A stretch of 16,957 nucleotides of DNA from Nitrososphaerota archaeon (GTDB lineage: Archaea > Thermoproteota > Nitrososphaeria > Nitrososphaerales > UBA57), in assembly GCA_013378385.1 (NCBI GenBank), contig JACAFS010000020.1, positions 1-16,957 of the forward strand, in the 5' to 3' direction. The notes below the pieces were generated by a model. That model was not told the origin of the DNA. It saw nothing but the letters and a program-made list of their open reading frames with translations, and searched no databases. This document shows, one piece after another, positions 265 to 15,776 of this stretch. Positions within the stretch are counted from its first letter, which is position 1; every line of letters begins with the position of its first letter. A program made the translations under genes and the position numbers.

Positions 265-313
265 AGTTAATCCAATTAATGCTTTCGTTTCGGTGTGTGT
301 AATCCGGGCAGGT

Positions 314-378
314 GATATCATTGATTTGCTGCAATTTACACAAGTAAAACAATATAACTGAATTATATCTGTATAGAT
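314..378 (+). promoter_or_regulatory. 5' module copy 1: conserved 65-nt upstream block with TATA-like AATATAA (351-357)
   Basis: GATATCATTGATTTGCTGCAATTTACACAAGTAAAACAATATAACTGAATTATATCTGTATAGAT abuts ATG 379. It recurs at 2582-2647 with 3 substitutions and 1 indel. The TATA-like box is centred ~25 nt before the ATG, which fits a leaderless archaeal-type promoter. Confidence 0.6.
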
Positions 379-1854
379 ATGACTCAATGGAAGTCGTTCC
401 TAGTTGTGGCGCTTTTTTTAGTTGGTTTAACGCCTACAGCAACGTCTCAAGCTGCTGTTGCTTATTCAATTAGTTTCACTGATGGACTAATTCAATTGGA
501 TGTTGGGCCAGATTCAGGGAGGTACCATTCAAATTTTGTTACTAATGAGGAATCAAGGTTTGAATTTAATGATTCTATGAAAGATAATGAAAGTATAACG
601 TACACAAACAATGCAGATATTGAAAATAACCAAAAAATTCTTTATTTAACAATTCAAGTAGACTGGTCAATAGAAAATTGGACATATACTAACGAGTTTT
701 CTATGAATGCTTTTGGCTTATCTAAATCTTCATCTGAACAATCTGATTCGATGGAATTGACTTGGCATGTAAATGAAAATTTGACCGTTGGAAGCGTTGC
801 AACGGGTGAAGCACAAAATGAATCTGATTTTGAGAGCTCATTTTTGAAAAATGCACCTTCACTATCAATGTCATTTGATTTTACTGAAGGGTCTTCATTT
901 AATCTTAGTGAAGTATATTTTGAGGTTACTACAAAGATAGTAACATGGGATTTTACTGGTATTGCTGCCGGTGGAGGAATTGATTGTACTGAGATGGTTA
1001 TTTCCAATGAAGGTCAGGCTACAGTTGATATAGATGTTGCTCTGAGTGGAGATGGTGTTACGGTTTCACCCGGAGCTGTTTCAGTCACACTTGCATCAGG
1101 CGAATCTATCGAAGTGCCAATTTGTGTTTTAGCTTTAGCACAGTCATTATACAAAAGTGTTCAAGTTAGTGCATTAGCTGAGGGCCGTGAAACTAATACA
1201 CAATTAAACCAAGTTAGCAAAAATGCAGGTTTTGCAGTTGTTATTTTACAATATGCTAGCTTATCAGTTTCAAGCGCTCCTGCACATTTACTTGAATGCA
1301 ATAAGATTGCCGAAATTATTTTCACAGTAATCAACAATGGTAATTATCAAGATACAGTAGCAGTTAACATTGCAAATCTTCAAGAACTGGAAGAAGCAGG
1401 TTTTGTTGTAGCACTTTCAGCAGTACAATTTTTGATTGATGCAGGAGGCGAACAGCCAGTTCAAGTTTGGGTGGGTTCCACGAATGTTAGTACGAAATCA
1501 GATTATCCTTTAACATTGAATGTTAGTACTACACTGCAAGGTGAAACTGAAAGTGCTAAAAGTACTACAGTAATGAAATTTGTAGATTGCCAAAAAGAAA
1601 CCGAAGATAAAGACAAAGATGACACAACCGGTTCCAATGAGAGCAAGATGTACGAAGGTGATGATCCTGGTGAATGTTCTGATGAGTCTGATAACGATAG
1701 AAATGGACTGTTTGACTGTGATGATGAGGGATGTTCTGGTTCTCCTGTATGTAAGGCCAGTGATCCAACAGAAGTTGATTCCCGTTTATCATCATTATCG
1801 CTACTTACGGTAATAACAATGCTCGGAATAATATCTATATTGCGAAGAAGATGA
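379..1854 (+). CDS. secreted surface protein, CARDB/Ig-like repeats, C-terminal membrane anchor ending RRR
   Basis: 491-aa ORF starting directly after the 5' module. It has a signal peptide (MTQWKSFLVVALFLVGLTPTATSQA). Some segments resemble CARDB/NEW3-type beta-sandwich repeats (VISNEGQATVDIDVALSGDGVTVSPGAVSVTLASGESIEVPICV; IIFTVINNGNYQDTVAVNI). An acidic Cys-rich stalk is followed by the C-terminal helix LSSLSLLTVITMLGIISILRRR-stop. Confidence 0.85.
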   Translation: MTQWKSFLVVALFLVGLTPTATSQAAVAYSISFTDGLIQLDVGPDSGRYHSNFVTNEESRFEFNDSMKDNESITYTNNADIENNQKILYLTIQVDWSIENWTYTNEFSMNAFGLSKSSSEQSDSMELTWHVNENLTVGSVATGEAQNESDFESSFLKNAPSLSMSFDFTEGSSFNLSEVYFEVTTKIVTWDFTGIAAGGGIDCTEMVISNEGQATVDIDVALSGDGVTVSPGAVSVTLASGESIEVPICVLALAQSLYKSVQVSALAEGRETNTQLNQVSKNAGFAVVILQYASLSVSSAPAHLLECNKIAEIIFTVINNGNYQDTVAVNIANLQELEEAGFVVALSAVQFLIDAGGEQPVQVWVGSTNVSTKSDYPLTLNVSTTLQGETESAKSTTVMKFVDCQKETEDKDKDDTTGSNESKMYEGDDPGECSDESDNDRNGLFDCDDEGCSGSPVCKASDPTEVDSRLSSLSLLTVITMLGIISILRRR

Positions 1855-2537
1855 GTGAAGAAGAGAAAAATATTTTAGTTACCAAAAGAAAATATTGGAC
1901 TAAATTCATGAAATATAATTTGGTAGGTACTATTTTTCTTGTAATCTATTTTTTCGTATTTAGAATGCTCTTTCATTCAGATATAGGGCTCTTTCCAGAG
2001 GCTCCAAGGATTATCTCAGAATCTTTATGGGTTGTTGGTTCGATATGTATGATTTCCCTTTTCATCGCTTGGCCATTATCGTTTATAATATATGGCTATC
2101 AAAGTTTTAAAATTTATAAAATAAACAGGAAGGAATTGTCAGAGCAACATGAGGCATCGAAGGATTTAACTTCAGTTTCTTCTACCTTTGCAAAAATGGG
2201 CCAAGAAACGAGAAAAGAAATTGGAGATGTATTAGACAAAAAGGAAGATATAGATGAAAACATAAATGAAAACAAAGTAACAAACCCCAAAGAAATAACC
2301 GAATTCCAAGAGTCTAAAGCTGTTTTTTCAGCAGGTATCTTTCTCATGGCAATTTATGCTATTTCTATTCTTTTCATAGACAATCCGTATGCAGCTTGTA
2401 TAGATAGTAACATAGAAGAAATGGCAGATTGTATGAATCGGGCGAATTTATTCTTCAAGGGTTTGTCATTTGTGGGTGCAATCGGCCTTATTCTTTCCCT
2501 AATTGGAATTTATACAAAACCCCCCCGTTTGATGTAG
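1851..2537 (+). CDS. integral membrane protein (about four TM helices), unknown function
   Basis: 228-aa ORF. ATGA overlaps the upstream stop (1851-1854), implying co-translation with 379..1854. Hydrophobic segments are LVGTIFLVIYFFVFRMLF, LWVVGSICMISLFIAWPLSFIIYGY, AVFSAGIFLMAIYAISILFI and LSFVGAIGLILSLIGIY. The last codons (KPPRLM-stop) lie inside the 3' repeat module. Confidence 0.75.
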   Translation: MSEEEKNILVTKRKYWTKFMKYNLVGTIFLVIYFFVFRMLFHSDIGLFPEAPRIISESLWVVGSICMISLFIAWPLSFIIYGYQSFKIYKINRKELSEQHEASKDLTSVSSTFAKMGQETRKEIGDVLDKKEDIDENINENKVTNPKEITEFQESKAVFSAGIFLMAIYAISILFIDNPYAACIDSNIEEMADCMNRANLFFKGLSFVGAIGLILSLIGIYTKPPRLM

Positions 2538-2584
2538 AGGGGGCCTCCTTCCATAGCGATTCAGGATCGTCTGCGCAGCGCGAT
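2519..2584. repeat. 3' module copy 1 (C-run/G-run hairpin + shortened core + relic gene end)
   Basis: AACCCCCCCGTTTGATGTAGAGGGGGCCTCCTTCCATAGCGATTCAGGATCGTCTGCGCAGCGCGAT matches 4949-5013 apart from one C indel and two substitutions. C-run 2520-2526 and G-run 2539-2543 can pair around a 12-nt loop. The shortened core TTCCATAGCGATTCAG lies at 2549-2564. Confidence 0.9.
2561..2584 (-). pseudogene. relic 3' end of a lost minus-strand surface-protein gene (…IALRRRS-stop)
   Basis: The reverse complement of 2561-2584 is ATC GCG CTG CGC AGA CGA TCC TGA = I A L R R R S stop. This matches the last 7 codons plus stop of 4990..8079 (ATC GCG CTG CGT AGA CGA TCC TGA) at 23 of 24 nt. Homology stops abruptly at 2584, where the 5' module begins. 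Confidence 0.75.
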
Positions 2585-2647
2585 ATCATTGATTTGCTGC
2601 AATTTACACAAGTAAAGCAATATAACTGAATCATATCTGTACAGCAT
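2582..2647 (+). promoter_or_regulatory. 5' module copy 2 with TATA-like AATATAA (2619-2625)
   Basis: GATATCATTGATTTGCTGCAATTTACACAAGTAAAGCAATATAACTGAATCATATCTGTACAGCAT abuts ATG 2648 and is near-identical to 314-378. The TATA-like box is centred 26 nt before the ATG. Confidence 0.6.
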
Positions 2648-4948
2648 ATGCATCCATTGAAATTGTCTCTATTTGCGCTGTTGTTATTGGCAGTTTTTAG
2701 TATACAATCTGTAGAAGGTTCACCTCAAGCTACTATAGAAAGTATAGAACCCCAAATACTTAATCTGGATGATTTTGTTGAAGAAGTTGATTGGATAAAC
2801 AATTCATATATATATGAAAATCATAATAGTTTTACTCCATCAAATCATACTTGGACACATAACTACACCGAACCTGGTGAAAGCTGGAAGTTGCCAAATC
2901 CCGTTTGGAACCTGTCTCAAGGTCAAGCGCAGCAAGATGTTGATAGGAATCAGATTTGGGGTCCAGCTTTAAGTTGTGAAGGGGAAAATGGAACACACAA
3001 TTCAGAATTTTGTATGTATTATGAGGGGGGTTCTGGCTCATTGTTTACAGAAAATTATGATGTGTCAGATTTATCTTATAATATTTCGTTGTATCTAAGT
3101 CATAGATACAACTTCGATTATTACGCTGGTTATCCCTCATATAATGGAGGCCAAGTTAGAATCAGTACTGATAACGGCACCACCTGGTCTCTCCTTTACC
3201 CTGATGGAGGCTATCCTGGCACAATACATGATGATGAGTCACATGGCAATCCTTTGTATGGCCAAGAGGGCTTTGTCCATTGCGGAGACTGTTCAGGCGT
3301 AAGTGGTTCGGCAAGTGATAATCAAGATAAATGGATTACAACTATATTCGATTTAAAACCATATTTTAACACCGAATATGTTAAATTTCAGTTCATAGTT
3401 GGGATGTATGGTTATCAATGGCCAGGTGACGGAGAACATTGGTACATTGATGAATTTCATATAGCTGAAAGCCCTGAATATCTGTACTTCTTGGGTAATG
3501 CAAGTGACATCGATGGCAACATTACGGATTATCAGTGGAATTCAACCATAGATGGAAATTTTGGTAACACTGAAAACTTAACGTTTATTTTGAATAGTTT
3601 TCAACGATTATCTATTGGAAATCATACGATATCTTTTACAGCTCGAAATGAGGAAGGCAATTGGTCTGATGAGGATTATTCCTGGTTATTAATCTTAAGA
3701 AATCCAGGTATTGAATGGATTAATGTTCCTGACGATTTTTCAACTGACGTGTCTCCATTTATAGAATTCAGTATAACAACGCCAGTTAATTTCTCAACCA
3801 GGTGCAAATTAGATGAGGAAGAATGGTACGATTGTGACTCGACAAATAATTTTTCCAATCTTACTCAAAGAGAACATTCGTTTGCAGTTAATGCAACTGA
3901 TGAATTTGGATACTATAATCTAAGTTATTTCAATTGGACGGTAATTAATAATCCTCCAAATGTGGATTACTCAGTATCCGAAACGCCAATTCGACAATAC
4001 CATCCGTTATCCGTTAGCTGTTCTGCGTCTGATTCTGATGGTTATATTGTAAAGTACAGATGGGCTTTAGTTGATTCATCTGACAGGCAAAATACCAGTA
4101 AAGATTTTGTCCTTTACGAAGGTGAAAATCCTAATACTACTTTCTCGAATATAACTGTAGGTAATCATTGGATAACTTGTAGAGCTTTTGACAATGATGG
4201 TGATTGGAATTGGGTTCAGGCAATAACAAGCATTTATATTAAAAATAACACCAAGCCACAAGCTGACATAGAAGAGATAGTACCTGATTTAGCAGAATAC
4301 GGAAGGTCTGTAGAATTCTATGGTAATGCCTCAGATGACAATTTTACTATCGAAAAGTATGAATGGAGCTCTAATGTAGATGGAACCCTTTCGAACACTC
4401 GTAATTTCACAACATCATCTTTGGGTGCTGGCTGGCATACCATATATTTCAGAGTTCGTGATTCTGAGGGTCTTTGGAGTGATAATGCAAGTAAAGATTT
4501 GTTTGTCAATATTATACCCACGGCTTATGCTGGGGAAAATGTGTCTACTACTCCGAATGTTCCAATTCAATTTAATGGTCAAGGAGAAGATGAAGATGGC
4601 AACATTACCAAGTACGAATGGGATTTTGACGGTGATGGAATTTACGACTGGGCTGATGAATTCAATGGTAGAGAATTGAATTTGTATAATAATGCAGGAA
4701 CATATACTGCAGTTCTTAGAGTAACGGATAATGATGGTTCAACTAGTACGGATGAGGTTACTGTCAAAGTTACTGAAAAAGATGTAGTTATTGACCTAGG
4801 AGATGGTGAAATTGATGTTGATAATGGTACTATTGAAATGGAGAATGGTAGTTTTGATTTAATAGAGACTGAGGAAGGAATCCCTAGCATTGGAATTATT
4901 GCTGCAATGGTATCAATAGGATTGATTGCAAGGTTCAGAAGAAGATAG
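2648..4948 (+). CDS. secreted, heavily sequon-bearing surface protein with PKD/Ig-like repeats and IPS-helix-RRR C-terminal anchor
   Basis: 766-aa ORF with signal peptide MHPLKLSLFALLLLAVFSIQSVEG. There is a clear PKD domain near the C-terminus (NITKYEWDFDGDGIYDW...GTYTAVLRVTDNDGSTSTDEVTV). Upstream PKD-like repeats read NITDYQWNSTIDG, IVKYRWALVD and TIEKYEWSSNVDG. I counted 31 N-x-S/T sequons by hand. The C-terminus is EEGIPSIGIIAAMVSIGLIARFRRR-stop. Confidence 0.9.
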   Translation: MHPLKLSLFALLLLAVFSIQSVEGSPQATIESIEPQILNLDDFVEEVDWINNSYIYENHNSFTPSNHTWTHNYTEPGESWKLPNPVWNLSQGQAQQDVDRNQIWGPALSCEGENGTHNSEFCMYYEGGSGSLFTENYDVSDLSYNISLYLSHRYNFDYYAGYPSYNGGQVRISTDNGTTWSLLYPDGGYPGTIHDDESHGNPLYGQEGFVHCGDCSGVSGSASDNQDKWITTIFDLKPYFNTEYVKFQFIVGMYGYQWPGDGEHWYIDEFHIAESPEYLYFLGNASDIDGNITDYQWNSTIDGNFGNTENLTFILNSFQRLSIGNHTISFTARNEEGNWSDEDYSWLLILRNPGIEWINVPDDFSTDVSPFIEFSITTPVNFSTRCKLDEEEWYDCDSTNNFSNLTQREHSFAVNATDEFGYYNLSYFNWTVINNPPNVDYSVSETPIRQYHPLSVSCSASDSDGYIVKYRWALVDSSDRQNTSKDFVLYEGENPNTTFSNITVGNHWITCRAFDNDGDWNWVQAITSIYIKNNTKPQADIEEIVPDLAEYGRSVEFYGNASDDNFTIEKYEWSSNVDGTLSNTRNFTTSSLGAGWHTIYFRVRDSEGLWSDNASKDLFVNIIPTAYAGENVSTTPNVPIQFNGQGEDEDGNITKYEWDFDGDGIYDWADEFNGRELNLYNNAGTYTAVLRVTDNDGSTSTDEVTVKVTEKDVVIDLGDGEIDVDNGTIEMENGSFDLIETEEGIPSIGIIAAMVSIGLIARFRRR

Positions 4949-5013
4949 ACCCCCCGTTTGATGTAGAGGGGGCCTCCTTCCATAGTGATTCAGGATCGTC
5001 TACGCAGCGCGAT
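4949..5013. repeat. 3' module copy 2 (spacer between convergent genes plus last codons of 4990..8079)
   Basis: ACCCCCCGTTTGATGTAGAGGGGGCCTCCTTCCATAGTGATTCAGGATCGTCTACGCAGCGCGAT is the counterpart of 2519-2584. C-run 4950-4955 and G-run 4968-4972 can pair. The shortened core lies at 4978-4993, and its TCA (4990-4992) is the stop of the minus-strand gene. Confidence 0.9.
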
Positions 5014-8000
5014 GATTCCGATGGCAGCGATTGAAGAGATCAAAGATACTGAAGGTATGCCTTCTTCATCTTCTCCTGCATCTGTAACCGTAACATTGCC
5101 TTCATCGTCAATCTGAACCTTCTTCTCTGATATTGTGATTTCTACTGTATCAGTGTCTGTGAATCCATCATTATCTGTTACACGCAAGGTTGCAGTATAT
5201 GTTCCTTCATTATTGTAAATGTTCAACTCACGGCCATTTTCAGTAGATGACCATTCAAAGATACCATCTCCATCAAAGTCCCATTCATAGAGAATAACGG
5301 TTCCATCCTCATCTGTAGCCGCACCACTGAACTGTAACGGAACTCCAGGCGTGCCCGTTGAATCTTGACCAGCTATTGCAACAGGTGATACATATATCCA
5401 CAATTCTTGAGATACTGAAGAACTCCAAACCCCATCATTGTCCAACACCTGAAGGGCGATAATATGATAGCCAATTGATAAATCACTTGCACTAAAATTT
5501 CTTTGCTCACTTAAATTCCCATCAATCGTTGATTTCCATAAGTAGGATACAATGGTAAGATTATCATCAGTTCCAGTGCTGTTGAAGAATACAGTGATTC
5601 CTGCCTCTGCTGGTGAAGGGGAAATGGAATCTATTATTCCAACAGGTTGGGAATTAGGAGTTACGATTAGAACCGCAGTAACCCATTCTGACCATCTCTT
5701 TGGAAAAATGGTATCATTGTCCAGCACTCGGAAAGAGATAGAGTGGTTTCCGGCAGTCAGACCTGTATGATAGAAATCTTCTTTATCACTCAAAAATCCA
5801 TCTATGTCTGAGATCCATTCATACGCGGAGATTGTTCCGTTGTTATCAGTTCCACTTCCATTAAAAGAAATTATCCTGTCAAACCTAACTAATGACGGTG
5901 TAATAGAGTCGATTACTGCGACTGGAGGTATATTGGGATTAAAAACCTGCACCGTTGCTACACCTATTTCTCTCCCATTTTCTTTGTCATCATCGACACG
6001 AAAACTTATGAAATAGCTACCTTCTTCTGTTGGTACCCATTGTGTATCAGTCTCATTGGAGATAACTCCAGATTCTACATACCAAGTGTAAGTTGTAATA
6101 TTTCCACAACCTCTGACCGCGCTGCCGTTTAGCCAAACAGTCTCACCAATTGCAACATAAAGTGGTTCTGCGCTTGCAGATATGGTAGGTGGCACATCCG
6201 AAACTACTTTGATGTTGATGGATAGCTTTGAACTCCAAGTTCCATTATTGTCTTGAACCTCCAGTTTAATCTGATAGAAGGCGCCTGCATCGAAAGAAGT
6301 TGTCCAATTGACCTCTTCGGATACAAGTTCATTGTTAAACCACCAGCGATAAGCAACTATCGTTCCGTCTGGATCCGAAGAATTTCTGGCTGAAAAAGTA
6401 AGATTCCAACAATCGCAATATTCTGGTGTAAGACCGCCTAGTGAATCTGGTGAGATTGTTATTGCTGCCGTTGGGCCTATGTTGGAAACAACTTCAATAT
6501 ATTTGTCATTATCATATTGGTTGTTCGTGTCGTCCCATTCAAGGATTTCTTCATCCCTGTCAACCCAAGCATAAAACTCATAGACACCTAATTTAGTTGG
6601 AGTCCAGGCGTACTCGAAGATAGTAGTATCTGGCGTGAGCCCAACCGTCTTGGAATCATCAATCTTGAACCAGCTGGTCACCGTATCTTCCGGATCTTTA
6701 ATCCTGATAAAAACGTCAACGTCATCAGCTATTCGGTCTCCTAAATCAGTCTGAGACACTGCGACCTGAATCGTTCTTGTTTCATCTACAAAGACTTCGC
6801 CTGTCCCCTCATCAATATCAGTTACAATCAAATCCGGCCTTGTTTCTTTCAATTCGAAATATTCAGCGTAGACAGTATACCAATCCAGATTGTTATTATC
6901 TTCGTCCGTTTCTTCGATTACATCCTCTCCATCGACAACAATTCGAACATTCCAAAACCCAGCATCATCAGAGGTTGTACTCCAGTTGACAGCTAGAATA
7001 TCATCCGATGTGAAAACCTCGCCACCTTCTATAGTAGTTCTAACGGACTTACTTTGATTGGTATAGGTCCATGATTGTCCTGAACAGTCTCCATCTGGGC
7101 ATTTCATGACCTCGAGATGCATGACTAACCAACCATCTCCGGGCTCGGGTGGTTCTGCATCTCCTTCACCTGTGTTCTCAATCGAATATTTGAAAGATAC
7201 TGTATCACCACCTACAGGATCGAGAGGTTCGCAGCTTATCGAATCGATACCATTATCCCAAACCCGAAGATCAGGGTCACTACAATCTCCCACACAAACT
7301 TCCCACACATCTACATTATTATCTAAATCGGGATCTTCTTCGGTGTTGTTCTCATCCGAATCAATGATAACTGTGAATTTGTACTCTCCATCTTCAGTGT
7401 CACTAGGAATTGTATATGACCATTCCATAGTCTCTGGTTCTGGTGGTGCATCAGGAGAAGGCGGGCTTATGTAGGCAAAAGTGTATGGCGTTGGATCAAA
7501 ATAATTGGTTGGTTCTTCATCTACCTCATCAAAATAGGCCATTATAGTTACAGGATTCAGAGTACTGACGTCTCCTTCATTTCCATACTCGAAAACTACC
7601 TCGACGCTTTGGCCTGCAGAAAACTCATCACCATCTATATCAAAATCAACGAAAAGATCAGCATCACCGGTTTCAGGTTCAACATTGATATAATTCTCAA
7701 ATATACCATAATCACTACTGGAATAATAAATAGTCGCAGAGTAGCAAACTTCTCCAGTCTCATCAAAAGTAATCTCCAGAGTTACAGTATCTGATTCGCC
7801 GGCCCCCATTGTAATTGTATCAGACTCGTCTGCTAAATCATCCTGATCACAATCAGAAAAAAGGCGTACGGTTGCATCGTAAGAATCATCACCATTATTT
7901 GACCATTCTGCTATAATTTCATATTCAACATTTGCCCTTGGAGGCGGTGTACCAGCTGGCCCATATAGATTGACAACCTCCAAATCGTCTTCTGGTCCGG

Positions 8001-8079
8001 CCTGAACAGATGTAGATGCCATGGTAGTCAATACCATCATAAAAATGATAAAAGCCGAGAGAAATCGCCAACCTTTCAT
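4990..8079 (-). CDS. large secreted surface protein: N-terminal CARDB-like repeats, C-terminal PKD repeats, IPS-helix-RRRS anchor
   Basis: 1029-aa ORF with signal peptide MKGWRFLSAFIIFMMVLTTMASTSVQA. Repeated CARDB-like units begin with DLEVVNL..., DLFVDFDI..., PDLRVWDNG... and PDLIVTDIDEG.... PKD units include VILYEWDFDGDGIFEW...GTYTATLRVTDNDGFTDTDTVEI. The C-terminus is EEGIPSVSLISSIAAIGIIALRRRS-stop. TATA-like CTTATTAC (complement of 8100-8107) lies 21-28 nt upstream of the ATG. Confidence 0.92.
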   Translation of the reverse strand: MKGWRFLSAFIIFMMVLTTMASTSVQAGPEDDLEVVNLYGPAGTPPPRANVEYEIIAEWSNNGDDSYDATVRLFSDCDQDDLADESDTITMGAGESDTVTLEITFDETGEVCYSATIYYSSSDYGIFENYINVEPETGDADLFVDFDIDGDEFSAGQSVEVVFEYGNEGDVSTLNPVTIMAYFDEVDEEPTNYFDPTPYTFAYISPPSPDAPPEPETMEWSYTIPSDTEDGEYKFTVIIDSDENNTEEDPDLDNNVDVWEVCVGDCSDPDLRVWDNGIDSISCEPLDPVGGDTVSFKYSIENTGEGDAEPPEPGDGWLVMHLEVMKCPDGDCSGQSWTYTNQSKSVRTTIEGGEVFTSDDILAVNWSTTSDDAGFWNVRIVVDGEDVIEETDEDNNNLDWYTVYAEYFELKETRPDLIVTDIDEGTGEVFVDETRTIQVAVSQTDLGDRIADDVDVFIRIKDPEDTVTSWFKIDDSKTVGLTPDTTIFEYAWTPTKLGVYEFYAWVDRDEEILEWDDTNNQYDNDKYIEVVSNIGPTAAITISPDSLGGLTPEYCDCWNLTFSARNSSDPDGTIVAYRWWFNNELVSEEVNWTTSFDAGAFYQIKLEVQDNNGTWSSKLSINIKVVSDVPPTISASAEPLYVAIGETVWLNGSAVRGCGNITTYTWYVESGVISNETDTQWVPTEEGSYFISFRVDDDKENGREIGVATVQVFNPNIPPVAVIDSITPSLVRFDRIISFNGSGTDNNGTISAYEWISDIDGFLSDKEDFYHTGLTAGNHSISFRVLDNDTIFPKRWSEWVTAVLIVTPNSQPVGIIDSISPSPAEAGITVFFNSTGTDDNLTIVSYLWKSTIDGNLSEQRNFSASDLSIGYHIIALQVLDNDGVWSSSVSQELWIYVSPVAIAGQDSTGTPGVPLQFSGAATDEDGTVILYEWDFDGDGIFEWSSTENGRELNIYNNEGTYTATLRVTDNDGFTDTDTVEITISEKKVQIDDEGNVTVTDAGEDEEGIPSVSLISSIAAIGIIALRRRS

Positions 8080-8124
8080 AATGTTCTAAATAATGGAAAG
8101 TAATAAGGATTTGCGAAATACTTC

Positions 8125-8149
8125 ACTCCACAATAACATAGTGATTCGG
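8125..8149. repeat. core repeat, full copy 1
   Basis: ACTCCACAATAACATAGTGATTCGG is 22/25 identical to 8896-8920 and 23/25 to 10438-10462, in the same orientation. It lies 45 nt upstream of the minus-strand start at 8079. Confidence 0.9.
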
Positions 8150-8171
8150 CATTGAAAATAGATAAGTAACA

Positions 8172-8891
8172 ATGTATGTTCCGCTTCATATGAGCAAAAC
8201 CTACTTGGTAATATTTTGTTTGCTTGCTACGTCCCTGGCCGGATGCTTATCTGGGGATACAGGTACAGACGTTATTCCGTACGAACCTGGGAGTGCAACA
8301 CTAATACAATCGGAATGGACAATGACAGAACATAACGTATATTTTCAACAATTTACAGCACCGAGTACTGGTGAGTACACTGGTATGACTATCATTACCG
8401 TGTCCACTTATGGATATTCTAGTTGTTCAGAGTATAGTGGAGTTCTTGGAGTTGCCGTATATTCACATAATGCCACCGATTCTAGAGCTGGTGCGCCTAG
8501 TGAATTAATTGCGCAGGGAACTTTATCATTAGATAATGTTAGTGCAAAGAACGGATACTTAAGCCATGCAATACAATTTGATGATTCTGCAGATTTGAAA
8601 TCTAATACAATATATTGGGTTGCTATTGCATCCGAATCTCCGATTGACTCGTGTCGTTTAGAGTTAGGTTATTACGGAGGTTATTATATTGTTGAAACTG
8701 ATAGGTATGGCAGTACCTCTAAGGTTGATTTTATTCCACCGAGTAACGATTATGGATTAGTGAAGTATATGAACTCAAACAGTTATGATGGCAATGTTAC
8801 GGGTTTTTCAGCCAGTGGAGGGTTTCCCACAAGTCTTGGTGAATATAGTTTATCTAGTGGAGAATATGCTTATTGGTATCGTATATTCTGA
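8172..8891 (+). CDS. putative lipoprotein, unknown function
   Basis: 239-aa ORF. The N-terminus ...MSKTYLVIFCLLATSLAGC carries a lipobox-like LAGC. There is no C-terminal anchor. An in-frame ATG at 8190 is an alternative start: the A/T box AAAATAGATAA (8155-8165) would then sit 25-35 nt upstream, as at other genes here. Confidence 0.8.
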   Translation: MYVPLHMSKTYLVIFCLLATSLAGCLSGDTGTDVIPYEPGSATLIQSEWTMTEHNVYFQQFTAPSTGEYTGMTIITVSTYGYSSCSEYSGVLGVAVYSHNATDSRAGAPSELIAQGTLSLDNVSAKNGYLSHAIQFDDSADLKSNTIYWVAIASESPIDSCRLELGYYGGYYIVETDRYGSTSKVDFIPPSNDYGLVKYMNSNSYDGNVTGFSASGGFPTSLGEYSLSSGEYAYWYRIF

Positions 8892-8895
8892 GACT

Positions 8896-8920
8896 ATTCC
8901 ACAACAACATAGTGATTCAG
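8896..8920. repeat. core repeat, full copy 2
   Basis: ATTCCACAACAACATAGTGATTCAG starts 4 nt after the lipoprotein stop codon. Its TCA (8917-8919) is the stop codon of the minus-strand gene 8917..10395. Confidence 0.9.
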
Positions 8921-10395
8921 TATCGTCTACGCAGCGCTATCAACCCAATCGATATCAAGGCAGGAATAAGGGATATTGAAGGAATCCATCCTGAATCATT
9001 TATGTCTCCAGGTTCGCAGTCCATTTCTGTACAAGACCATTCACCTTCGCTACAGACACATTGATTGCAACCATCATCTGCCATTTTAATATATCCATTC
9101 TGGCAAAGGTCAGATTCATCTTCTGTATTCGAGGCTCCCTCTTCTAGCTTTGGAGATTCCTCTCCTATATTTTCATCATCTAGCATATTCTCAAACAGGT
9201 AGACTGTATCTTGGGTGGTAACAATAACATACTTACCATTCGTAGACATTTCTATATGTTCAATGGATATTCCTATGTTGTACTCCCAAAGCAGGGTCTT
9301 ATTCTCTGTTGCAAGTGTGAAAACATATCCATCCTTGAAGCTCGCGATGTACTTACCGTCATTTGAAATGACAGCCTGAGAGACTTCCTCTTCTGCGTCA
9401 TATACCCAAATTGGACTATTGCTGTCTCTATGAAAAAGATAGATTTTACCATCACTTGCACTTGCGGTAATGTATTGCCCGTCACTTGACATGGCGATTG
9501 AATTGAAAAATGTCCCACCATCTGTCGGAGTATATTCCCAAACAGTTGCATTGCTTTCCTTATTAAATAAATAAATCTTAGAAGAGCCACAATCACCATT
9601 GCAATCATGTCCTTCCCCCTTCGCTATAGCGATAAACGTCCCGTCTTCCGAGATAGAAACGTGCATTTCAGGTCCCTGAAATGTAATGCTATTTCGTATA
9701 GGCATGAACCTGTATTCCCACAAAGGCGTACTATTTTCTTTGGAAAAGAAGGTAATTTTCCCTTCAGCAGATTCGTTTGCATGCTGTATAGCATAGCCGG
9801 CAACGACGAAGTACCCTCCGTCCGCCGAGATAGCGAATGATCCACCTCGATTTATATCTAGAGTATAGTTACTGATTAGCGTACCGTTACCACTTCTCAA
9901 CAAATGTAGGCCACTCACTAATATATGTTCTCCGTCAGCAGTAATGTCATGCACTCGCGACGATCCTGAAACATTCCATTCCATTTGCCAAAGTGGTGTA
10001 CCGTTTTCACTTCTAAAAACTGAAAAGTAAGGTGGACAGTGTGCGTGGTCATTTGGATCCATCTCACATTGAGCTCTTGCATGATGGACGATTACGTAAT
10101 CTCCATTCTCAGATATGAGAGAGTTCTTCGCAGTATCTCCTTCCGTATAGTTCCAAAGAAGCGTATTATTTCTAAACAAATAAACTACTCCATCACTATT
10201 CCTTCCAGAGTCCCTTCCTGCAGAGACAATCACATATTCGCCATCTCCAGAAATGGTAGCTGAAAGCTGCTCCGGACTAGATGGAATTTCAGGAGTAAAG
10301 GTCCATACGGGCTCTTTCCCCGCATCCACTTCCCCCGCCATCAGCACCAGCGCGAAGCCGGCAAGTAGCAAAAAAAGAAGGGAACGCATTGTCAT
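8917..10395 (-). CDS. secreted beta-propeller-repeat protein with Cys-rich module and IPS-helix-RRRY anchor
   Basis: The ORF track extends to 10452, but a signal peptide begins at MTMRSLLFLLLAGFALVLMAGEVDA (ATG 10395; a second ATG at 10389). About seven repeats end in a W-x-Y/W motif (LLWNYTEG, PLWQMEW, PLWEYRF, TVWEYTP, PIWVYDA, LLWEYNI), typical of PQQ/WD-like propeller blades. The C-terminus is CQNGYIKMADDGCNQCVCSEGEWSCTEMDC...SGWIPSISLIPALISIGLIALRRRY-stop. TATA-like CTTATTAC (complement of 10411-10418) matches the spacing at 8079 best if 10389 is the start. Confidence 0.88.
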   Translation of the reverse strand: MTMRSLLFLLLAGFALVLMAGEVDAGKEPVWTFTPEIPSSPEQLSATISGDGEYVIVSAGRDSGRNSDGVVYLFRNNTLLWNYTEGDTAKNSLISENGDYVIVHHARAQCEMDPNDHAHCPPYFSVFRSENGTPLWQMEWNVSGSSRVHDITADGEHILVSGLHLLRSGNGTLISNYTLDINRGGSFAISADGGYFVVAGYAIQHANESAEGKITFFSKENSTPLWEYRFMPIRNSITFQGPEMHVSISEDGTFIAIAKGEGHDCNGDCGSSKIYLFNKESNATVWEYTPTDGGTFFNSIAMSSDGQYITASASDGKIYLFHRDSNSPIWVYDAEEEVSQAVISNDGKYIASFKDGYVFTLATENKTLLWEYNIGISIEHIEMSTNGKYVIVTTQDTVYLFENMLDDENIGEESPKLEEGASNTEDESDLCQNGYIKMADDGCNQCVCSEGEWSCTEMDCEPGDINDSGWIPSISLIPALISIGLIALRRRY

Positions 10396-10435
10396 ACTCA
10401 AATGTAGTTTGTAATAAGTGTTTTTCTTTGTGAAA

Positions 10436-10654
10436 TCATTCCACAATAACATAGTGATTCAGTACTATTATTTGGCAATCCGGGCAGGTAACATCCTCCA
10501 ACTCTTCCGTTACATTGAAACCCCATATTCCACAAAGTGTCCGATTAGTATCCTCATCATTGCAATGAACATGGAAAAGATCATCATGCATCGCGCAGGG
10601 ATGGAAAATCCGCAAGTAATCATTACCTTCCCAGTAACAGTCAGGACATTTCAT
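10436..10654 (-). CDS. small zinc-ribbon protein (CPDC...CPDC); may be the C-terminal part of a longer or degraded gene
   Basis: From ATG 10654: MKCPDCYWEGNDYLRIFHPCAMHDDLFHVHCNDEDTNRTLCGIWGFNVTEELEDVTCPDCQIIVLNHYVIVE. It has two CPDC pairs plus extra Cys/His. The same frame stays open upstream to 10915 with no ATG (the track uses TTG at 10834), so the true 5' end is uncertain. Confidence 0.5.
   Translation of the reverse strand: MKCPDCYWEGNDYLRIFHPCAMHDDLFHVHCNDEDTNRTLCGIWGFNVTEELEDVTCPDCQIIVLNHYVIVE
10438..10462. repeat. core repeat, full copy 3
   Basis: ATTCCACAATAACATAGTGATTCAG lies 42 nt upstream of the start at 10395 and overlaps the last codons of the zinc-ribbon ORF. Confidence 0.9.
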
Positions 10655-11106
10655 TGGTAGACCCCGAAAATATCGAGCCTGTCGGCTATTGGGTTTTTGG
10701 CGAGTGTAGTTTGTTTGTGGTAATTCATTTGTTGGCGTTTCCTGCGTCAGGAAGGCGCGGCGGAGCGTTGGCTGACGGTTATACTTCAGACAGTAGAATT
10801 CGACATAGCGTTGGCTCTGCAGTTGCGTTCCCAAAACATCTCGCTGATAGCCGAGGCTCTCAGCGATATCGAAGACGTGACGTGGAAGGTAATAAAGGTG
10901 GCGGCGAGCAAGATTTCAACGACCGTTAGAATCATTCGGGAAAAAATCGAAAATGTTAGTTTTCCGTAGGGTAAAGTACATTTTCGCACATCAATTTGGG
11001 GCTATTTTGCCAGTAAAAGACCTATTTAGGGTGAAAAACAGCGATTTCGCCCCAAATATTTGGCTGAACAGGAGTGTTGAGGGATGCCCAAAGGCACTGA
11101 GACGTG

Positions 11107-11147: not shown

Positions 11148-11165
11148 CCTATGTGTACACATAGG
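11148..11165. repeat. 18-bp perfect palindrome CCTATGTGTACACATAGG
   Basis: The sequence is self-complementary across all 18 nt and is non-coding. It may be a protein-binding site. Confidence 0.8.
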
Positions 11166-11190: not shown

Positions 11191-11453
11191 ACAAAGAATT
11201 TAACAAATTATTACTAACAACACATTACAGAAGTACTACGCCAATCATCAACCAATAATCGCCACGGCGTCCTAAATTTCAGTTTGACGTAATCAGGCCT
11301 TTTCAAAAAGACCGTCACGACGATAGCCATTTTGAGAATCAGCTTTGAAAAAGGGTGAGCGGGCTCATTTCATATTTTTCTTCAATTCGAGTCATTTTTT
11401 GGAAATACCGTACGGTAAAATAGTTTGAAATGGCTTAGATTTTCATCCCCAAA

Positions 11454-11462
11454 TTTTATATA
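11454..11462 (+). promoter_or_regulatory. TATA-like box TTTTATATA for the HNH gene
   Basis: It lies 26-34 nt upstream of ATG 11488, the same geometry as other genes in the window. Confidence 0.5.
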
Positions 11463-11487
11463 CCTTCAAGAAAAAAGACTTGGTTAT

Positions 11488-11808
11488 ATGCGTAAAAATC
11501 ATAAAAAAGATATAGATAGTACGAAAGACTTCATCAGAAAGGCAGCTAAGTTCATCAATAAGGTGGATCGAAAATTTCGCAAATGGACCCGTTTCAAGAA
11601 TGAGTACCGGCCAGCCAATAAGCGCTATATTCCAAAGCCGACACGAAAGGCGGTCTTAATTCGAGATAACTATAGTTGTGTCAAGTGCGGTAACCAGAAG
11701 GATTTGCACATGGACCATATTATCCCGGATTCCAAGAATGGCAGTAACGAGCTGGAGAATTTGCAGGTCCTTTGCAAAGATTGTAATTTGAGGAAAGGTG
11801 TGAGTTAG
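11488..11808 (+). CDS. HNH endonuclease
   Basis: The track ORF starts at TTG 11425; I prefer ATG 11488 (MRKNHKKD...) because of the TATA spacing. The C-terminal half, CVKCGNQKDLHMDHIIPDSKNGSNELENLQVLCKDCNLRKGVS, is a canonical HNH motif. It is a paralog of 1-264. Confidence 0.9.
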   Translation: MRKNHKKDIDSTKDFIRKAAKFINKVDRKFRKWTRFKNEYRPANKRYIPKPTRKAVLIRDNYSCVKCGNQKDLHMDHIIPDSKNGSNELENLQVLCKDCNLRKGVS

Positions 11809-11813
11809 GCAAA

Positions 11814-11829
11814 GATCTAAATGTAGATC
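11814..11829. other. hairpin GATCTA-AATG-TAGATC between HNH and the downstream gene
   Basis: A 6-bp perfect stem with a 4-nt loop lies 6 nt after the HNH stop. Its function (attenuator, processing or binding site) is unknown. Confidence 0.4.
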
Positions 11830-11847
11830 CGACATAAGCAATATCCT

Positions 11848-12708
11848 ATGGTTGAAAAATTGGATTCTTTCTATGTAATCCCAGGTTACACATTTTTCTA
11901 TTGGGGATTCACACTTCCTAAGAAGCATTATGAGGAATTCATAGATTTTTTTAATTTCAATGATGATAAATTATTAGACAAAATAACTTTAAAAATTGAT
12001 GGTAAGAAATATCCTGCTAAAATCCGAATGGCTCGGATTAATAATAAAGGAACAATGAAAGGACGTTCAAATGTGAAATATCCTGAAAGAGAAGTAATTC
12101 AAATTTTCTGGGATAAGGAATATGAAACATTGAAAGCTCTTCGTAAATTTTTCATTTACAGTTACGCATCAACAATAGACAAATCTAAGCCTAAATTGAA
12201 GGAAGTGATGGAATTAATTCATGTCAAAAATAATGAATTTAGAATAAAATCAATATCTAGGCAAGAAACCGATTTTGATGCCATGTTAAAATTTATGGAG
12301 GATAAGAATTTGTTTGGATTTTGGAGAGAAGAAATCTCTAAGAAAAAGAGAAAGCGTAATATTTTTGTCGATTATTCAAGGAAATGGATTCCAGCTTCTA
12401 AAGTTAAAGATTATAGTAATCGAAATCATATAATTTATCTACTATATCACTCGGAAAAGAAACAATTGTATGTTGGAAAAGCGAACATAATGGGCGATAG
12501 AGTTCAGCAAGGTAAAGGCCGTATTGGGCTTGACAAAGATTGGGATAAATTCATGTTCTTTGAGATTCATCCTGAGTTTAGCCATTTCATAGAACAGATT
12601 GAAGCTTTTACGATTCGCTCATTTGCAGCATTAGTGGATAATGATGTTGATATTACACCACTTGTTGATAGAAATATTAAGTTGGTAAACCGGCAGTTGA
12701 AGAAGTAA
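11848..12708 (+). CDS. two-domain protein: unknown N-terminal domain + C-terminal GIY-YIG-like nuclease domain
   Basis: 286-aa ORF. NHIIYLLYHSEKKQLYVGKANIMGDRVQQG fits the GIY-x(~10)-YVG-x-A-N-x3-R pattern of GIY-YIG nucleases. A downstream Glu-containing helix (FIEQIEAFTIRSF) sits where the catalytic Glu is expected. The N-terminal ~170 aa are unassigned. Confidence 0.6.
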   Translation: MVEKLDSFYVIPGYTFFYWGFTLPKKHYEEFIDFFNFNDDKLLDKITLKIDGKKYPAKIRMARINNKGTMKGRSNVKYPEREVIQIFWDKEYETLKALRKFFIYSYASTIDKSKPKLKEVMELIHVKNNEFRIKSISRQETDFDAMLKFMEDKNLFGFWREEISKKKRKRNIFVDYSRKWIPASKVKDYSNRNHIIYLLYHSEKKQLYVGKANIMGDRVQQGKGRIGLDKDWDKFMFFEIHPEFSHFIEQIEAFTIRSFAALVDNDVDITPLVDRNIKLVNRQLKK

Positions 12709-12711
12709 GGA

Positions 12712-12741
12712 TGGATGCTTTGTATGAGACGGTAGCATCCA
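12712..12741. terminator. hairpin between convergent genes (8-bp stem TGGATGCT/AGCATCCA, 14-nt loop)
   Basis: It lies in the 64-nt spacer between stops at 12708 (+) and 12773 (-). A terminator role is inferred only from its position. Confidence 0.3.
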
Positions 12742-12772
12742 GACCGCTTTGAGTCGGTGAGACTTCTTGGTT

Positions 12773-14413: not shown

Positions 14414-14429
14414 CTTTTGGTTTGGTTCA

Positions 14430-14741
14430 TTAGAATCCTACTCCTCTCATGATAATCTCTCCTCTCTTGATCTTGTATGAGAATTTGTGATGATTGTTTG
14501 ACCCTCTTGCTTTCGTAGCATTAGAAATCATCTTAGCTTTTAGATGCGCTCCTTTGATTAACGTGTTATTAGAAATTTCTTCCCCTTCAAACGTTGTTCT
14601 TTTTTGAGGAGTTACAACCCCTATTGGGACTCTTACCAGAGAGCCGCGTTTGATTTCTTTGACCGATATCGGAAATTTAGTTGATAAGACAATTGAGTCA
14701 AAGCTCAATTTTGAGTTGAAAGGCAATTGACCGCAGATCAA
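14430..14741 (-). CDS. hypothetical 103-aa protein, middle gene of the GHKL operon
   Basis: The TTG start overlaps the upstream stop (TTGA at 14738-14741), and the ORF ends 16 nt before the GHKL start. I recognise no motif. Confidence 0.55.
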   Translation of the reverse strand: MICGQLPFNSKLSFDSIVLSTKFPISVKEIKRGSLVRVPIGVVTPQKRTTFEGEEISNNTLIKGAHLKAKMISNATKARGSNNHHKFSYKIKRGEIIMRGVGF

Positions 14742-15697: not shown

Positions 15698-15718
15698 AAT
15701 CTGAGAGCCTGTTGAGGG

Positions 15719-15726
15719 TATTAAAA
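15719..15726 (-). promoter_or_regulatory. TATA-like box (TTTTAATA on minus strand) of the GHKL operon
   Basis: It lies 22-29 nt upstream of ATG 15697. Confidence 0.5.
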
Positions 15727-15736
15727 CGTTTCTTTT

Positions 15737-15776
15737 CGCACTTTAGTGCACCTCATTGCACCTTAATGCACCTTAA
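15737..15776 (-). promoter_or_regulatory. four tandem 10-bp repeats (minus sense TTAAGGTGCA TTAAGGTGCA ATGAGGTGCA CTAAAGTGCG)
   Basis: The plus strand reads CGCACTTTAG TGCACCTCAT TGCACCTTAA TGCACCTTAA. The period is exactly 10 nt, and the array lies immediately upstream of the TATA-like box. Confidence 0.7.

What the first reader, a model, noticed from the sequence alone, without database searches (positions are those of the whole stretch)
8125..8920. Lipoprotein gene is bracketed by direct core copies, as a single inserted cassette would be
The cores at 8125-8149 and 8896-8920 (22/25 identical, direct orientation, 771-bp period) enclose one unrelated + strand gene (8172..8891) and its own A/T box. 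The gene's stop is 4 nt from the right core. Conceptually deleting one core plus the intervening 746 nt would join the promoter of 4990..8079 to core-TCA-RRRY of 8917..10395. That is the same head-to-tail joint architecture seen intact at 10396-10462. This is the footprint expected from recombination of a one-gene circle into a resident core, or from insertion with duplication of the core.
Basis: partly seen in the sequence, partly recalled or inferred. Interest (0 to 1): 0.8.

Follow-up and report, generated by a model that had tools for sequence, protein, structure and literature searches.

The report
Gene cassettes between zinc-ribbon-gene end repeats
The lipoprotein gene sits between two short copies of the tail end of a nearby small zinc-ribbon gene, and related marine archaeal DNA shows that whole genes are gained, lost and swapped at such copies, so this is a cassette-style variable region for cell-surface proteins, with no integrase found.

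Summary
The motif TCCACAAYAACATAGTGATTC occurs three times in direct orientation (8127, 8898, 10440), against none expected, and three independent assemblies carry the arrangement.

It is the last eight codons plus the stop codon of a conserved 72-aa zinc-ribbon gene (10436..10654, minus strand). That gene closes a ~10-kb array of surface-protein genes in an uncultured marine euryarchaeon.

Related contigs show cassette behaviour at these repeats:
- An extra 2-kb cassette lies between two cores exactly where the window has one.
- A neighbouring one-gene cassette is present or absent between 43-nt repeats.
- Three unrelated inserts lie between 99-100% identical flanks.
- One contig switches parent at the edge of core 1.

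The lipoprotein gene has a core-less chromosomal paralog beside FEN1, from which it was probably copied.

Against an integron-like mechanism:
- No recombinase was found, and the core does not fold like attC.
- Repeat lengths vary (22-69 nt), and at least one joint shows microhomology.
- The core-lipoprotein-core unit is old; relatives are 81-84% identical.
- No exact empty site was found for this cassette.

Verdict: an additive or replacement flexible island. Its insertion hotspot is the 3' end of a protein gene, and the mechanism is unresolved.

The parts
8123..8149 (-). Core 1 (TCACTCCACAATAACATAGTGATTCGG). It is an orphan copy of the last 8 codons plus stop codon of the zinc-ribbon gene. 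It lies between the promoter of 4990..8079 and the lipoprotein promoter.
   Evidence: It is identical in L003 and L040.
8150..8189 (+). Promoter and leader module of the lipoprotein gene (CATTGAAAATAGATAAGTAACAATGTATGTTCCGCTTCAT). The same module precedes an unrelated heparinase-like gene in L003/L027 and occurs there once more as an orphan copy.
   Evidence: The promoter function is inferred from the A/T box and its spacing.
8190..8891 (+). Lipoprotein gene (233 aa, lipobox LAGC; the ORF can also be read from 8172). No Pfam family was found, and there is only a weak choice-of-anchor R hit.
   Evidence: Homologs at 73-97% identity are P0001-P0009.
8896..8922 (-). Core 2 (ATTCCACAACAACATAGTGATTCAGTA). 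Its right end overlaps the last codon and stop (TAC TGA) of the minus-strand gene 8917..10395.
8917..10395 (-). Beta-propeller surface protein with a C-terminal TM+RRRY anchor. This cassette gene lies nearest the zinc-ribbon gene. In L017 its homolog (88% nt identity) has different neighbours on both sides.
10396..10435 (-). Promoter region of 8917..10395, with a TATA-like CTTATTAC.
   Evidence: Read from the sequence. This is an inference.
10436..10654 (-). Zinc-ribbon gene (72 aa, MKCPDC...CPDCQIIVLNHYVIVE*). Core 3 (10438-10462) is its coding 3' end.
   Evidence: Codon-position diversity is 0.072/0.047/0.163.
10436..10899 (-). Conserved 'Zn module' of 465 nt, running from a TATA-like ACCTTTATTACC to the stop codon. 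It is 84-91% identical in 8 loci, and the DNA on both sides varies.
4981..4993 (-). Half-core CATAGTGATTCAG directly after the stop of 4990..8079. It lies inside the 64-nt repeat D2 (4950-5013).
2521..2584 (-). Second copy of repeat D2. It holds a GC hairpin, a half-core (2552-2564) and a 24-nt 'ghost' of an anchor-gene end (IALRRRS*) with no gene attached.
301..321 (-). Exact 21-nt internal fragment of the zinc-ribbon gene (positions 37-57 from its stop, L023 variant). It is the most distal remnant and lies at the far end of the array, beside an HNH gene.
   Evidence: E = 1.6e-6.
4990..8079 (-). CARDB/PKD surface protein with an RRRS anchor. Core 1 lies about 20 nt upstream of its TATA-like box (8100-8107).

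Best explanation
The region is a cassette-type flexible genomic island of an uncultured marine euryarchaeon (Marine Group II/III-like). Its insertion hotspot is the 3' end of a small conserved zinc-ribbon gene (10436..10654, minus strand).

Each core is a leftover copy of that gene's last eight codons plus stop codon. When a gene-sized piece of DNA enters at the gene's tail, an intact tail is kept next to the gene. The previous tail is displaced outward as a short direct repeat. Successive cassettes therefore end up separated by core copies, and these copies decay with distance from the gene.

The lipoprotein gene (8190..8891) is one such single-gene cassette. It has a core-less chromosomal paralog next to FEN1, from which it was probably copied, and at least one of its joints shows microhomology.

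After capture, cassettes are lost, re-inserted and re-assorted by recombination between the 22-69-nt direct repeats and within the long conserved flanks. I think the cell's general recombination and microhomology-mediated joining are the most likely agents, under strong diversifying selection on surface proteins, rather than a dedicated integrase.

Shown here: the origin of the cores, cassette presence/absence and replacement at cores, the recombinant contig, and the core-less paralog.

Inferred: the order of insertions, the direction of copying from the paralog, the circular or Campbell-type intermediates, and the enzymes involved.
For: 1. Location of the cores. In about two thirds of roughly 30 core copies from 23 marine metagenome loci, the right flank is the zinc-ribbon gene and the core encodes LNHYV(I/V)VE*.

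2. Direction of copying. Distant homologs (41-47% identity) keep the tail ..CQxxxLN(H/Y)Y... The tail is therefore native to the gene, and the other cores are copies of it.

3. Decay with distance in the window. The series runs from core 3 (coding) to core 2 (24/25), core 1 (23/25), 13-nt half-cores at 4981 and 2552, and a 21-nt fragment at 301.

4. L017 and L006. They carry the beta-propeller promoter, a core, a 2056-nt two-gene cassette, a second core and the Zn gene. The window has a single core at that place.

5. L027/L028/L003 against L041. The first three carry a 644-nt one-gene cassette between 43-nt direct Zn-tail repeats. L041 has one repeat and no cassette, with 99.7% identical left flanks.

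6. L009, L020 and L021. They share 99-100% identical flanks but hold 1.1, 3.55 and 3.7 kb of unrelated genes between the two cores.

7. L003. It differs from L027 at 1 of 2673 nt left of the core. From the core edge onward it is 100% identical to the window, while L027 is 93%.

8. Lipoprotein contexts. Homologs are bracketed by cores with three different neighbour pairs (window; L027/28; L029). They lack cores next to Cbf5-RtcB-FEN1 in L030 and L033.

9. Signs of non-specific joining. The left lipoprotein joint shows microhomology (CTCTTCC.GTT), and a shared CTACT at the right joint is my reading from other loci's core flanks. Repeat lengths vary (22, 42, 66, 69 nt). Chimeric Zn proteins exist (P0124, P0129, P0130), as do 'ghost' genes.

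10. No recombinase domain was found in the window's called ORFs or in the cassette and flanking proteins I selected from related loci.

11. Precedent. Additive islands show a repeat of part of the target gene beside inserted cassettes (PMC4898812). Replacement islands are exchanged by homologous recombination (PMC4033161).
Against: - No locus has orthologs of both flanking genes joined by a single core, so there is no true empty site for this cassette.
- The core-lipoprotein-core unit is shared by lineages with 81-84% protein identity (L027, L029). This insertion is old, and it may never have moved as a unit since.
- At least four unrelated right-hand joints fall within 2 nt of GATTCAG|, and all repeats share the same left end at the stop codon. 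That hints at a specific cleavage or crossover site, which general recombination does not predict.
- Right-hand cores stay nearly intact in old cassettes, while L029's left core has decayed. This suggests either constraint or homogenisation.
- Almost all related contigs are short and end near the Zn module. A recombinase gene could therefore lie just outside them.
- The 20-22-nt exact-match searches bias the sample towards intact cores.
Confidence: 0.5

Rival explanations
1. A dedicated site-specific cassette system, integron-like in logic. A recombinase or nuclease encoded elsewhere recognises a site of about 28 nt (ATCACT-N12-AGTGAT-TCAG) at the tail of the zinc-ribbon gene. Candidates include the neighbouring HNH endonuclease or the Zn protein itself. 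The enzyme integrates and excises circular single-gene cassettes, each carrying one copy of the site.
For: - All cores are in direct orientation and cluster within a few kb of the Zn gene.
- Cassettes are present or absent exactly core-to-core.
- Several unrelated joints fall at GATTCAG|.
- The left edge is usually ATCACT, which forms a 6-bp inverted repeat with AGTGAT.
- Cores stay intact beside old cassettes.
- In L027 the insertion is flanked by repeats of a Zn-tail remnant, not of the live gene.
- An HNH gene lies 0.5-0.8 kb from the Zn module in the window, L016 and L023.
Against: - No recombinase domain was found in 17 kb of window or in the related loci.
- The core and its flanks fold no better than shuffled sequence (z from -1.0 to +1.0).
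- Repeat lengths vary from 22 to 69 nt.
- At least one lipoprotein joint shows microhomology.
- Breakpoints also occur elsewhere in the Zn gene (P0124, P0129, P0130).
- The Zn protein has no detectable relatives of known function, and its structure model is poor.
Confidence: 0.25
2. The core is a functional cis-element, such as a 3'-end, termination or regulatory site for minus-strand surface-protein genes. On this view it is kept by selection, and the array arose by ordinary duplication and divergence of a paralogous gene family. The lipoprotein gene then simply landed between two such elements.
For: - Anchor-protein genes often end ...TACTGA followed by a core, a half-core or a diverged core.
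- The core often lies 20-25 nt upstream of the TATA-like box of the next minus-strand gene.
- Promoter, signal-peptide and anchor modules are shared among paralogs.
Against: - Core 1 has no gene ending at it. In relatives the same position holds a 69-nt piece of Zn coding sequence.
- Five of 18 anchor-gene ends have no core-like sequence at all.
- The core has no oligo-T tract and no significant hairpin.
- The cores found are confined to the neighbourhood of the Zn gene.
- Presence/absence polymorphism occurs between near-identical flanks.
Confidence: 0.1
3. The pattern is due to chance similarity or to chimeric metagenome assembly at a short repeat.
For: - Many related contigs break at or near the core or Zn module.
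- L003 comes from a co-assembly.
Against: - No shuffle out of 200 gave a match.
- Three independent assemblies made with different assemblers agree.
- The 25-nt repeat is shorter than the final assembly k-mers.
- The same architecture recurs in more than 25 loci.
Confidence: 0.02

Closest known systems
Additive flexible genomic islands: integration hotspots at the 3' ends of tRNA/tmRNA genes, with partial target-gene repeats (Lopez-Perez and Rodriguez-Valera, PMC4898812)
   Same: The hotspot lies at the 3' end of a conserved gene, and direct repeats of part of that gene lie beside the inserted cassettes. Cassette content differs between near-clonal strains, and cassettes are shared between different arrays.
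   Different: The target is a small protein-coding gene and not a tRNA. Cassettes are mostly one or two genes (0.6-3.7 kb), each with its own promoter. No integrase was found, repeat length is variable, and the host is an archaeon.
Replacement flexible genomic islands for exposed cell structures (PMC4033161)
   Same: The content is almost entirely secreted or anchored surface proteins. Unrelated genes occupy the same slot between 99-100% identical flanks (L009/L020/L021). Exchange through homologous flanks is plausible.
   Different: The classical examples are glycosylation or O-antigen clusters swapped as one block. Here the island is subdivided by short repeats and changes cassette by cassette.
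Integrons and CALINs, including those reported in Archaea (PMC9668308)
   Same: There is an array of small gene cassettes separated by a recurring short site in direct orientation. Whole cassettes are gained or lost at the site, and no recombinase need be adjacent (as in a CALIN).
   Different: There is no IntI. The site is a 22-69-nt copy of a gene tail with no attC-type fold and no GTTRRRY. The cassettes carry promoters and lie in both orientations.
Xer-dependent modules (pdif modules / IMEX); comparison from my own knowledge
   Same: Small one- or two-gene modules are bounded by a site of about 28 bp and depend on a recombinase encoded elsewhere.
   Different: The core lacks the 11-6-11 dif architecture (by inspection), and the sites are all direct, not alternating.

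Membership tests
Integron / CALIN | IntI tyrosine recombinase (PF00589 plus the IntI-specific domain) next to the array | tested here: not met
   No recombinase family was found in the window's called ORFs or in the cassette and flanking proteins scanned from related loci. Caveat: the contigs are short, and CALINs lack IntI by definition.
Integron / CALIN | attC sites: 55-140-nt imperfect palindromes that fold as single strands, ending in GTTRRRY | tested here: not met
   DNA folds of the three cores with 15-16-nt flanks, on both strands, gave z-scores from -1.0 to +1.0 against shuffles. The sequence ends GATTCAG and not GTTRRRY.
Integron / CALIN | Cassettes mostly promoterless and co-oriented, expressed from Pc | tested here: not met
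   Genes lie on both strands. Each has its own A/T box 24-30 nt upstream of its start. Promoter function is inferred.
Integron / CALIN | Arrays differ by whole cassettes bounded at the recurring site | tested here: met
   L017/L006 against the window; L027/L028/L003 against L041; L009/L020/L021.
Additive flexible genomic island (target-gene-end hotspot) | Located at the 3' end of a conserved gene, with variable DNA beginning at the gene's end | tested here: met
   The left flank of the Zn-gene stop codon differs among loci, while the 465-nt Zn module is 84-91% identical.
Additive flexible genomic island (target-gene-end hotspot) | Direct repeat of part of the target gene beyond the inserted cassette | tested here: met
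   Repeats of 22-27 nt in the window (8123-8149, 8896-8922), 42 and 69 nt in L027, and 66 nt in L013.
Additive flexible genomic island (target-gene-end hotspot) | Different cassette sets at the same site in closely related genomes | tested here: met
   Flanks 99-100% identical with unrelated inserts. Flank 99.7% identical with and without a 644-nt cassette.
Additive flexible genomic island (target-gene-end hotspot) | Integrase or other mobility gene carried by the inserted elements | tested here: not met
   The cassette proteins are surface proteins, a NYN RNase, an amidohydrolase and similar. No integrase was found.
Xer/dif-type modules | 28-bp site with two ~11-bp inverted arms around a 6-bp spacer, and modules flanked by oppositely oriented sites | tested here: not met
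   Only a 6-bp inverted repeat (ATCACT/AGTGAT) with a 12-nt spacer is present, and all sites are direct. The dif architecture is recalled from my own knowledge.
Transposon / insertion sequence | Terminal inverted repeats, a transposase, and a fixed-length target-site duplication | tested here: not met
   No transposase was found. Repeat length varies from 22 to 69 nt. I did not search the cassette ends specifically for terminal inverted repeats; none appears among the 25 longest inverted repeats listed for the window.

The most novel reading that the evidence does not exclude
Planktonic Euryarchaeota may possess a previously undescribed, integron-like gene-capture platform. A site of about 28 nt at the tail of a lineage-specific zinc-ribbon gene would be cut or recombined by a factor acting in trans. 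Candidates are an unknown recombinase, the adjacent HNH nuclease, or the Zn protein together with its conserved 245-nt leader. The result would be stacked, promoter-bearing single-gene cassettes that diversify the cell surface.
Probability: 0.2. Interest if true: 0.85.

Novelty: new variant of a known kind. Interest (0 to 1): 0.6.

Why it matters
Marine Group II/III archaea are abundant and uncultured, and little is known about how their genomes diversify. This locus shows gene-by-gene turnover of surface proteins between nearly identical genomic backgrounds. The turnover is organised by short repeats of a protein gene's tail, with no visible integrase.

If a specific enzyme is involved, this would be a new cassette-capture system in Archaea. 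If not, it is a clear natural example of very short repeats and microhomology building and reshuffling a surface-protein island, probably under virus pressure.

In both cases the 25-nt core and the 465-nt Zn module are practical markers. They can be used to find and track these islands in metagenomes.

Tried and rejected
- tRNA and Rfam scans of the window found nothing.
- A core search in viral contigs, and searches for the Zn protein in viral contigs, phages and plasmids, found nothing. I found no support for a virus or plasmid origin.
- The search for an orthologous empty site through homologs of the 1029-aa protein failed. Its N-terminal half matches a chromosomal 952-aa CARDB protein in a housekeeping context without cores (L035). 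The closest PKD-containing homolog (L036) also lacks cores.
- Short lipoprotein contigs (783 and 909 nt) are not circles. L034 simply starts right after the left core, and L033 is the core-less paralog.
- I first read lipoprotein, core 2 and the 3' end of the neighbouring anchor gene as one inherited block. Alignment weakened this, because the anchor sequences diverge immediately after the core.
- Window 259-300 is not a diverged core (989 of 1000 shuffles scored as well).
- The Zn-module leader shows no covariation-supported RNA structure.
- The AlphaFold model of the Zn protein was too poor (pLDDT 56) for a fold search.
- A PDB profile search gave only chance-level hits.
- Contigs of the distant Zn homologs were too short to test whether their tails are also repeated.

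Full report
**1. The observation**

The two 25-nt segments 8125-8149 and 8896-8920 are 22/25 identical, direct, and 771 nt apart. The 21-mer TCCACAATAACATAGTGATTC occurs three times on the + strand (8127, 8898, 10440) with at most 1 mismatch. None was found in 200 dinucleotide-preserving shuffles.

A shorter piece, CATAG[T/C]GATTC, also occurs at 2552 and 4981. There it lies inside a 64-nt repeat (2521-2584 and 4950-5013, 97% identical).

The + strand ORF 8172..8891 ends 4 nt before the right core. Its likely true start is 8190, giving MSKTYLV..LAGC, a lipoprotein signal. Homologs start there, and an A/T box lies about 30 nt upstream.

The arrangement is reproduced in two other assemblies. L001 has 2 mismatches over the whole window. 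L040, a Logan assembly, is 100% identical over 6568-10397.

**2. What the core is**

A scan of genome and metagenome collections with the core gave one archaeal MAG contig (L003) and 23 marine metagenome contigs. A hit in a Chloroflexia MAG is a presumed chance match.

In about two thirds of the roughly 30 core copies, the sequence to the right is the 3' part of one conserved small gene. In the window this gene is 10436..10654 on the minus strand, encoding MKCPDCYWEGNDYLRIFHPCAMHDDLFHVHCNDEDTNRTLCGIWGFNVTEELEDVTCPDCQIIVLNHYVIVE*. The core is its last eight codons, and the stop codon lies just left of it.

The ORF shows the codon-position pattern of a coding gene, with diversity 0.072/0.047/0.163. 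Its only distant relatives (41-47% identity) keep the tail CQxxxLN(H/Y)Y. The tail is therefore native to the gene, and cores 1 and 2 are copies of the gene's end, not the other way round.

The gene sits in a sharply bounded 465-nt conserved module (10436-10899, 84-91% identical in eight loci). DNA on both sides of the module differs between loci.

On the right are defence-type genes. The window has HNH, a weak GIY-YIG-like match and a GHKL ATPase, L019 has a type I R-M system by my reading of its ORFs, and a distant relative has an MmeI-type methylase.

On the left is an array of genes. Most encode secreted proteins with PKD, CARDB, beta-propeller, laminin-G or BNR domains and a C-terminal TM+RRR[S/Y] anchor.

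The organism is an uncultured marine archaeon. L003 is titled 'uncultured archaeon'. Paralog contexts contain Cbf5, RtcB, FEN1 and MCM. Homolog names include 'Euryarchaeota archaeon' and 'Marine Group III'.

**3. Evidence that cores are cassette boundaries**

(a) In L017 and L006 a beta-propeller gene 88% identical to 8917..10395 is followed by its promoter and a core. Then come a 2056-nt segment with two genes (a 440-aa protein and a NYN RNase), a second core and the Zn gene. The window has a single core (core 3) at that place.

(b) In L027/L028/L003 a 644-nt segment holding one 154-aa membrane-protein gene lies between two 43-nt direct repeats of the Zn-gene tail. L041 has the same left gene (99.7% identical), one repeat and no cassette.

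(c) L009, L020 and L021 share a left flank (99-100% identical) and the Zn side (99%). Between the two cores they carry 1.1, 3.55 and 3.7 kb of unrelated genes.

(d) L003 differs from L027 at 1 of 2673 positions left of the core. From the core's left edge onward it is 100% identical to the window over 274 nt, while L027 is only about 93% there. L003 is thus a recombinant whose breakpoint lies at the edge of core 1.

(e) Within the window the Zn-tail copies decay with distance from the gene. The series runs from core 3 (coding) through core 2 (24/25) and core 1 (23/25) to the 13-nt half-cores at 4981 and 2552 and a 21-nt internal fragment at 301-321. This is what stepwise accretion at the gene's tail predicts.

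(f) L027 reads as heparinase-like gene | core+42 nt | 154-aa gene | core+69 nt | lipoprotein | core (22 nt) | anchor gene. This fits three successive insertions into the tail, each leaving the older tail behind.

**4. The lipoprotein cassette itself**

Homologs (73-97% identical) occur in four kinds of context.
- In the window and L040 the neighbours are the CARDB/PKD gene and the beta-propeller gene.
- In L027/L028/L003 the neighbours are the 154-aa gene and a different anchor protein.
- In L029 the neighbours are a metalloprotease lipoprotein and a 436-aa anchor protein.
- In L030 and L033 there are no cores at all. L030 places the gene in a housekeeping neighbourhood (Cbf5, cytochrome c maturation, RtcB, FEN1, then the lipoprotein and a subtilisin).

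The island copies keep a core on the right (0-2 mismatches). On the left they have a core (window, L003), a core plus 69 nt of Zn coding sequence (L027, L041), or a decayed version of that (L029).

Comparison with the core-less paralog dates the joints. The left joint shares CTCTTCC(A)GTT between the Zn gene and the paralog's upstream region. The right joint lies 8 nt after the stop codon; I read a shared CTACT there from the core flanks of other loci, which is weaker evidence.

In the window lineage the native promoter was later replaced by a module (8150-8189). The same module also drives an unrelated heparinase-like gene in L003/L027.

The gene was therefore probably captured from a chromosomal copy. 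The capture is old, because island copies differ by up to 19% in protein. The flanking genes have since been exchanged around it. I found no contig in which orthologs of both window neighbours are joined by a single core. The nearest case is L017, where the beta-propeller gene's tail core abuts the promoter of an unrelated gene.

**5. Mechanism**

Points against a dedicated site-specific system:
- No recombinase, transposase or integrase domain was found in the window's called ORFs or in the proteins I scanned from related loci.
- The core does not fold better than shuffled sequence.
- Repeat length is not fixed (22, 42, 66, 69 nt).
- Breakpoints also occur inside the Zn gene, giving chimeric proteins P0124, P0129 and P0130.
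- 'Ghost' genes occur, with a signal peptide fused to an anchor, or an anchor end with no gene.
- Promoter, signal-peptide and anchor modules are shared and swapped.

Points for some specificity:
- Four unrelated right-hand joints fall within 2 nt of GATTCAG|.
- All repeats begin at the stop codon.
- The left edge is usually ATCACT, an inverted repeat of AGTGAT.
- Cores beside old cassettes stay intact.

I therefore favour general recombination between short direct repeats and long flanks, together with microhomology-mediated capture (0.5). A dedicated system acting in trans remains a serious rival (0.25).

**6. Comparison with known systems**

The closest described kind is the additive flexible genomic island. 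These are hotspots at tRNA genes, where part of the target gene is repeated beside inserted cassettes and near-clonal strains differ by cassettes (PMC4898812). The surface-protein content and the slot-replacement pattern match replacement islands, which are exchanged by homologous recombination (PMC4033161).

The locus resembles integrons or CALINs in layout. It fails their defining features of IntI, attC fold and promoterless co-oriented cassettes (PMC9668308).

The differences that make it a new variant are:
- a protein-gene tail as the target;
- one- or two-gene cassettes that carry their own promoters;
- variable repeat length;
- no integrase found;
- an archaeal host.

**7. Verdict**

Interest is moderate to high (0.6). 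The most novel reading not excluded is a new archaeal cassette-capture system (probability about 0.2).

Noticed in passing
L003 38-100 (minus strand); L027 about 7250-7320; window 2552-2584: 'Ghost' genes. One is a 20-codon ORF, MTMRSLAFLLIAVIALRRRY*, that fuses the family's signal peptide directly to its C-terminal anchor. In the window, a 24-nt anchor end (IALRRRS*) has no gene attached. Gene bodies appear to be deleted or replaced between conserved ends.
   Followed up: partly
window 10655-10899: The 245-nt region upstream of the Zn ORF is as conserved as the gene. It starts at a TATA-like ACCTTTATTACC and contains a hairpin (CGCTGA..TCAGCG). It stays open in frame without an ATG in most copies, but L012 and L023 have frameshifting indels. 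RNAalifold found no covariation, so whether it is a leader, an ncRNA or an N-terminal extension is unresolved.
   Followed up: partly
window 1-264 and 11425-11808; 301-321: Two HNH endonuclease gene copies (about 80% identical at their 3' ends) lie at the two ends of the array. The left one is followed within 40 nt by a 21-nt internal fragment of the Zn gene. This suggests the unit Zn module-spacer-HNH may be duplicated or mobile.
   Followed up: partly
window 314-376 / 2582-2644 and 2521-2584 / 4950-5013: Two tandem + strand units (314-2584 and 2582-5013) each start with the same 63-nt promoter module (95% identical). Each ends with the same 64-nt GC-hairpin plus half-core module (97% identical). 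The genes between them are unrelated.
   Followed up: partly
window 4990-8079: The 1029-aa protein is a chimera. Its N-terminal CARDB half is about 70% identical to a widespread 952-aa protein encoded in a housekeeping context (L035: UDG, GTPase, acetyl-CoA carboxylase, MCM). Its C-terminal PKD domain and anchor resemble those of the convergent 766-aa gene (inverted repeat 4664-4737 / 5165-5238).
   Followed up: partly
window 11148-11165: A perfect 18-bp palindrome, CCTATGTGTACACATAGG, lies in the 525-nt non-coding spacer between the Zn module and the HNH gene. That spacer is conserved only in L023 (79%).
   Followed up: no
window 11425-16957; L019 74-5142; L038: The side of the Zn module away from the array carries defence-type genes. 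The window has HNH, a protein with a weak GIY-YIG match, a GHKL/MutL-like ATPase and several unknown proteins. L019 has type I R-M S and R subunits by my reading of its ORFs, and a distant Zn homolog sits beside an MmeI-type methylase. The Zn gene may mark the border between a surface-protein island and a defence island.
   Followed up: partly
proteins P0124, P0129, P0130, P0132; L041 2023-2445: Natural chimeras exist. One has the Zn protein's N-terminal 59 aa fused to an anchor-protein C-terminus. Others have foreign N-termini fused at HDDLFHV. One lipoprotein allele is truncated after about 132 aa by another rearrangement.
   Followed up: no
window: C-termini of 379..1854, 2648..4948, 4990..8079 and 8917..10395: There is a shared C-terminal sorting-signal-like motif, (E/G)xIPS(I/V)SLIxxIxxIGIIALRRR[S/Y]. 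It did not match PGF-CTERM or any other NCBIfam anchor model at E <= 1, so it may be an undescribed archaeal anchor type.
   Followed up: partly
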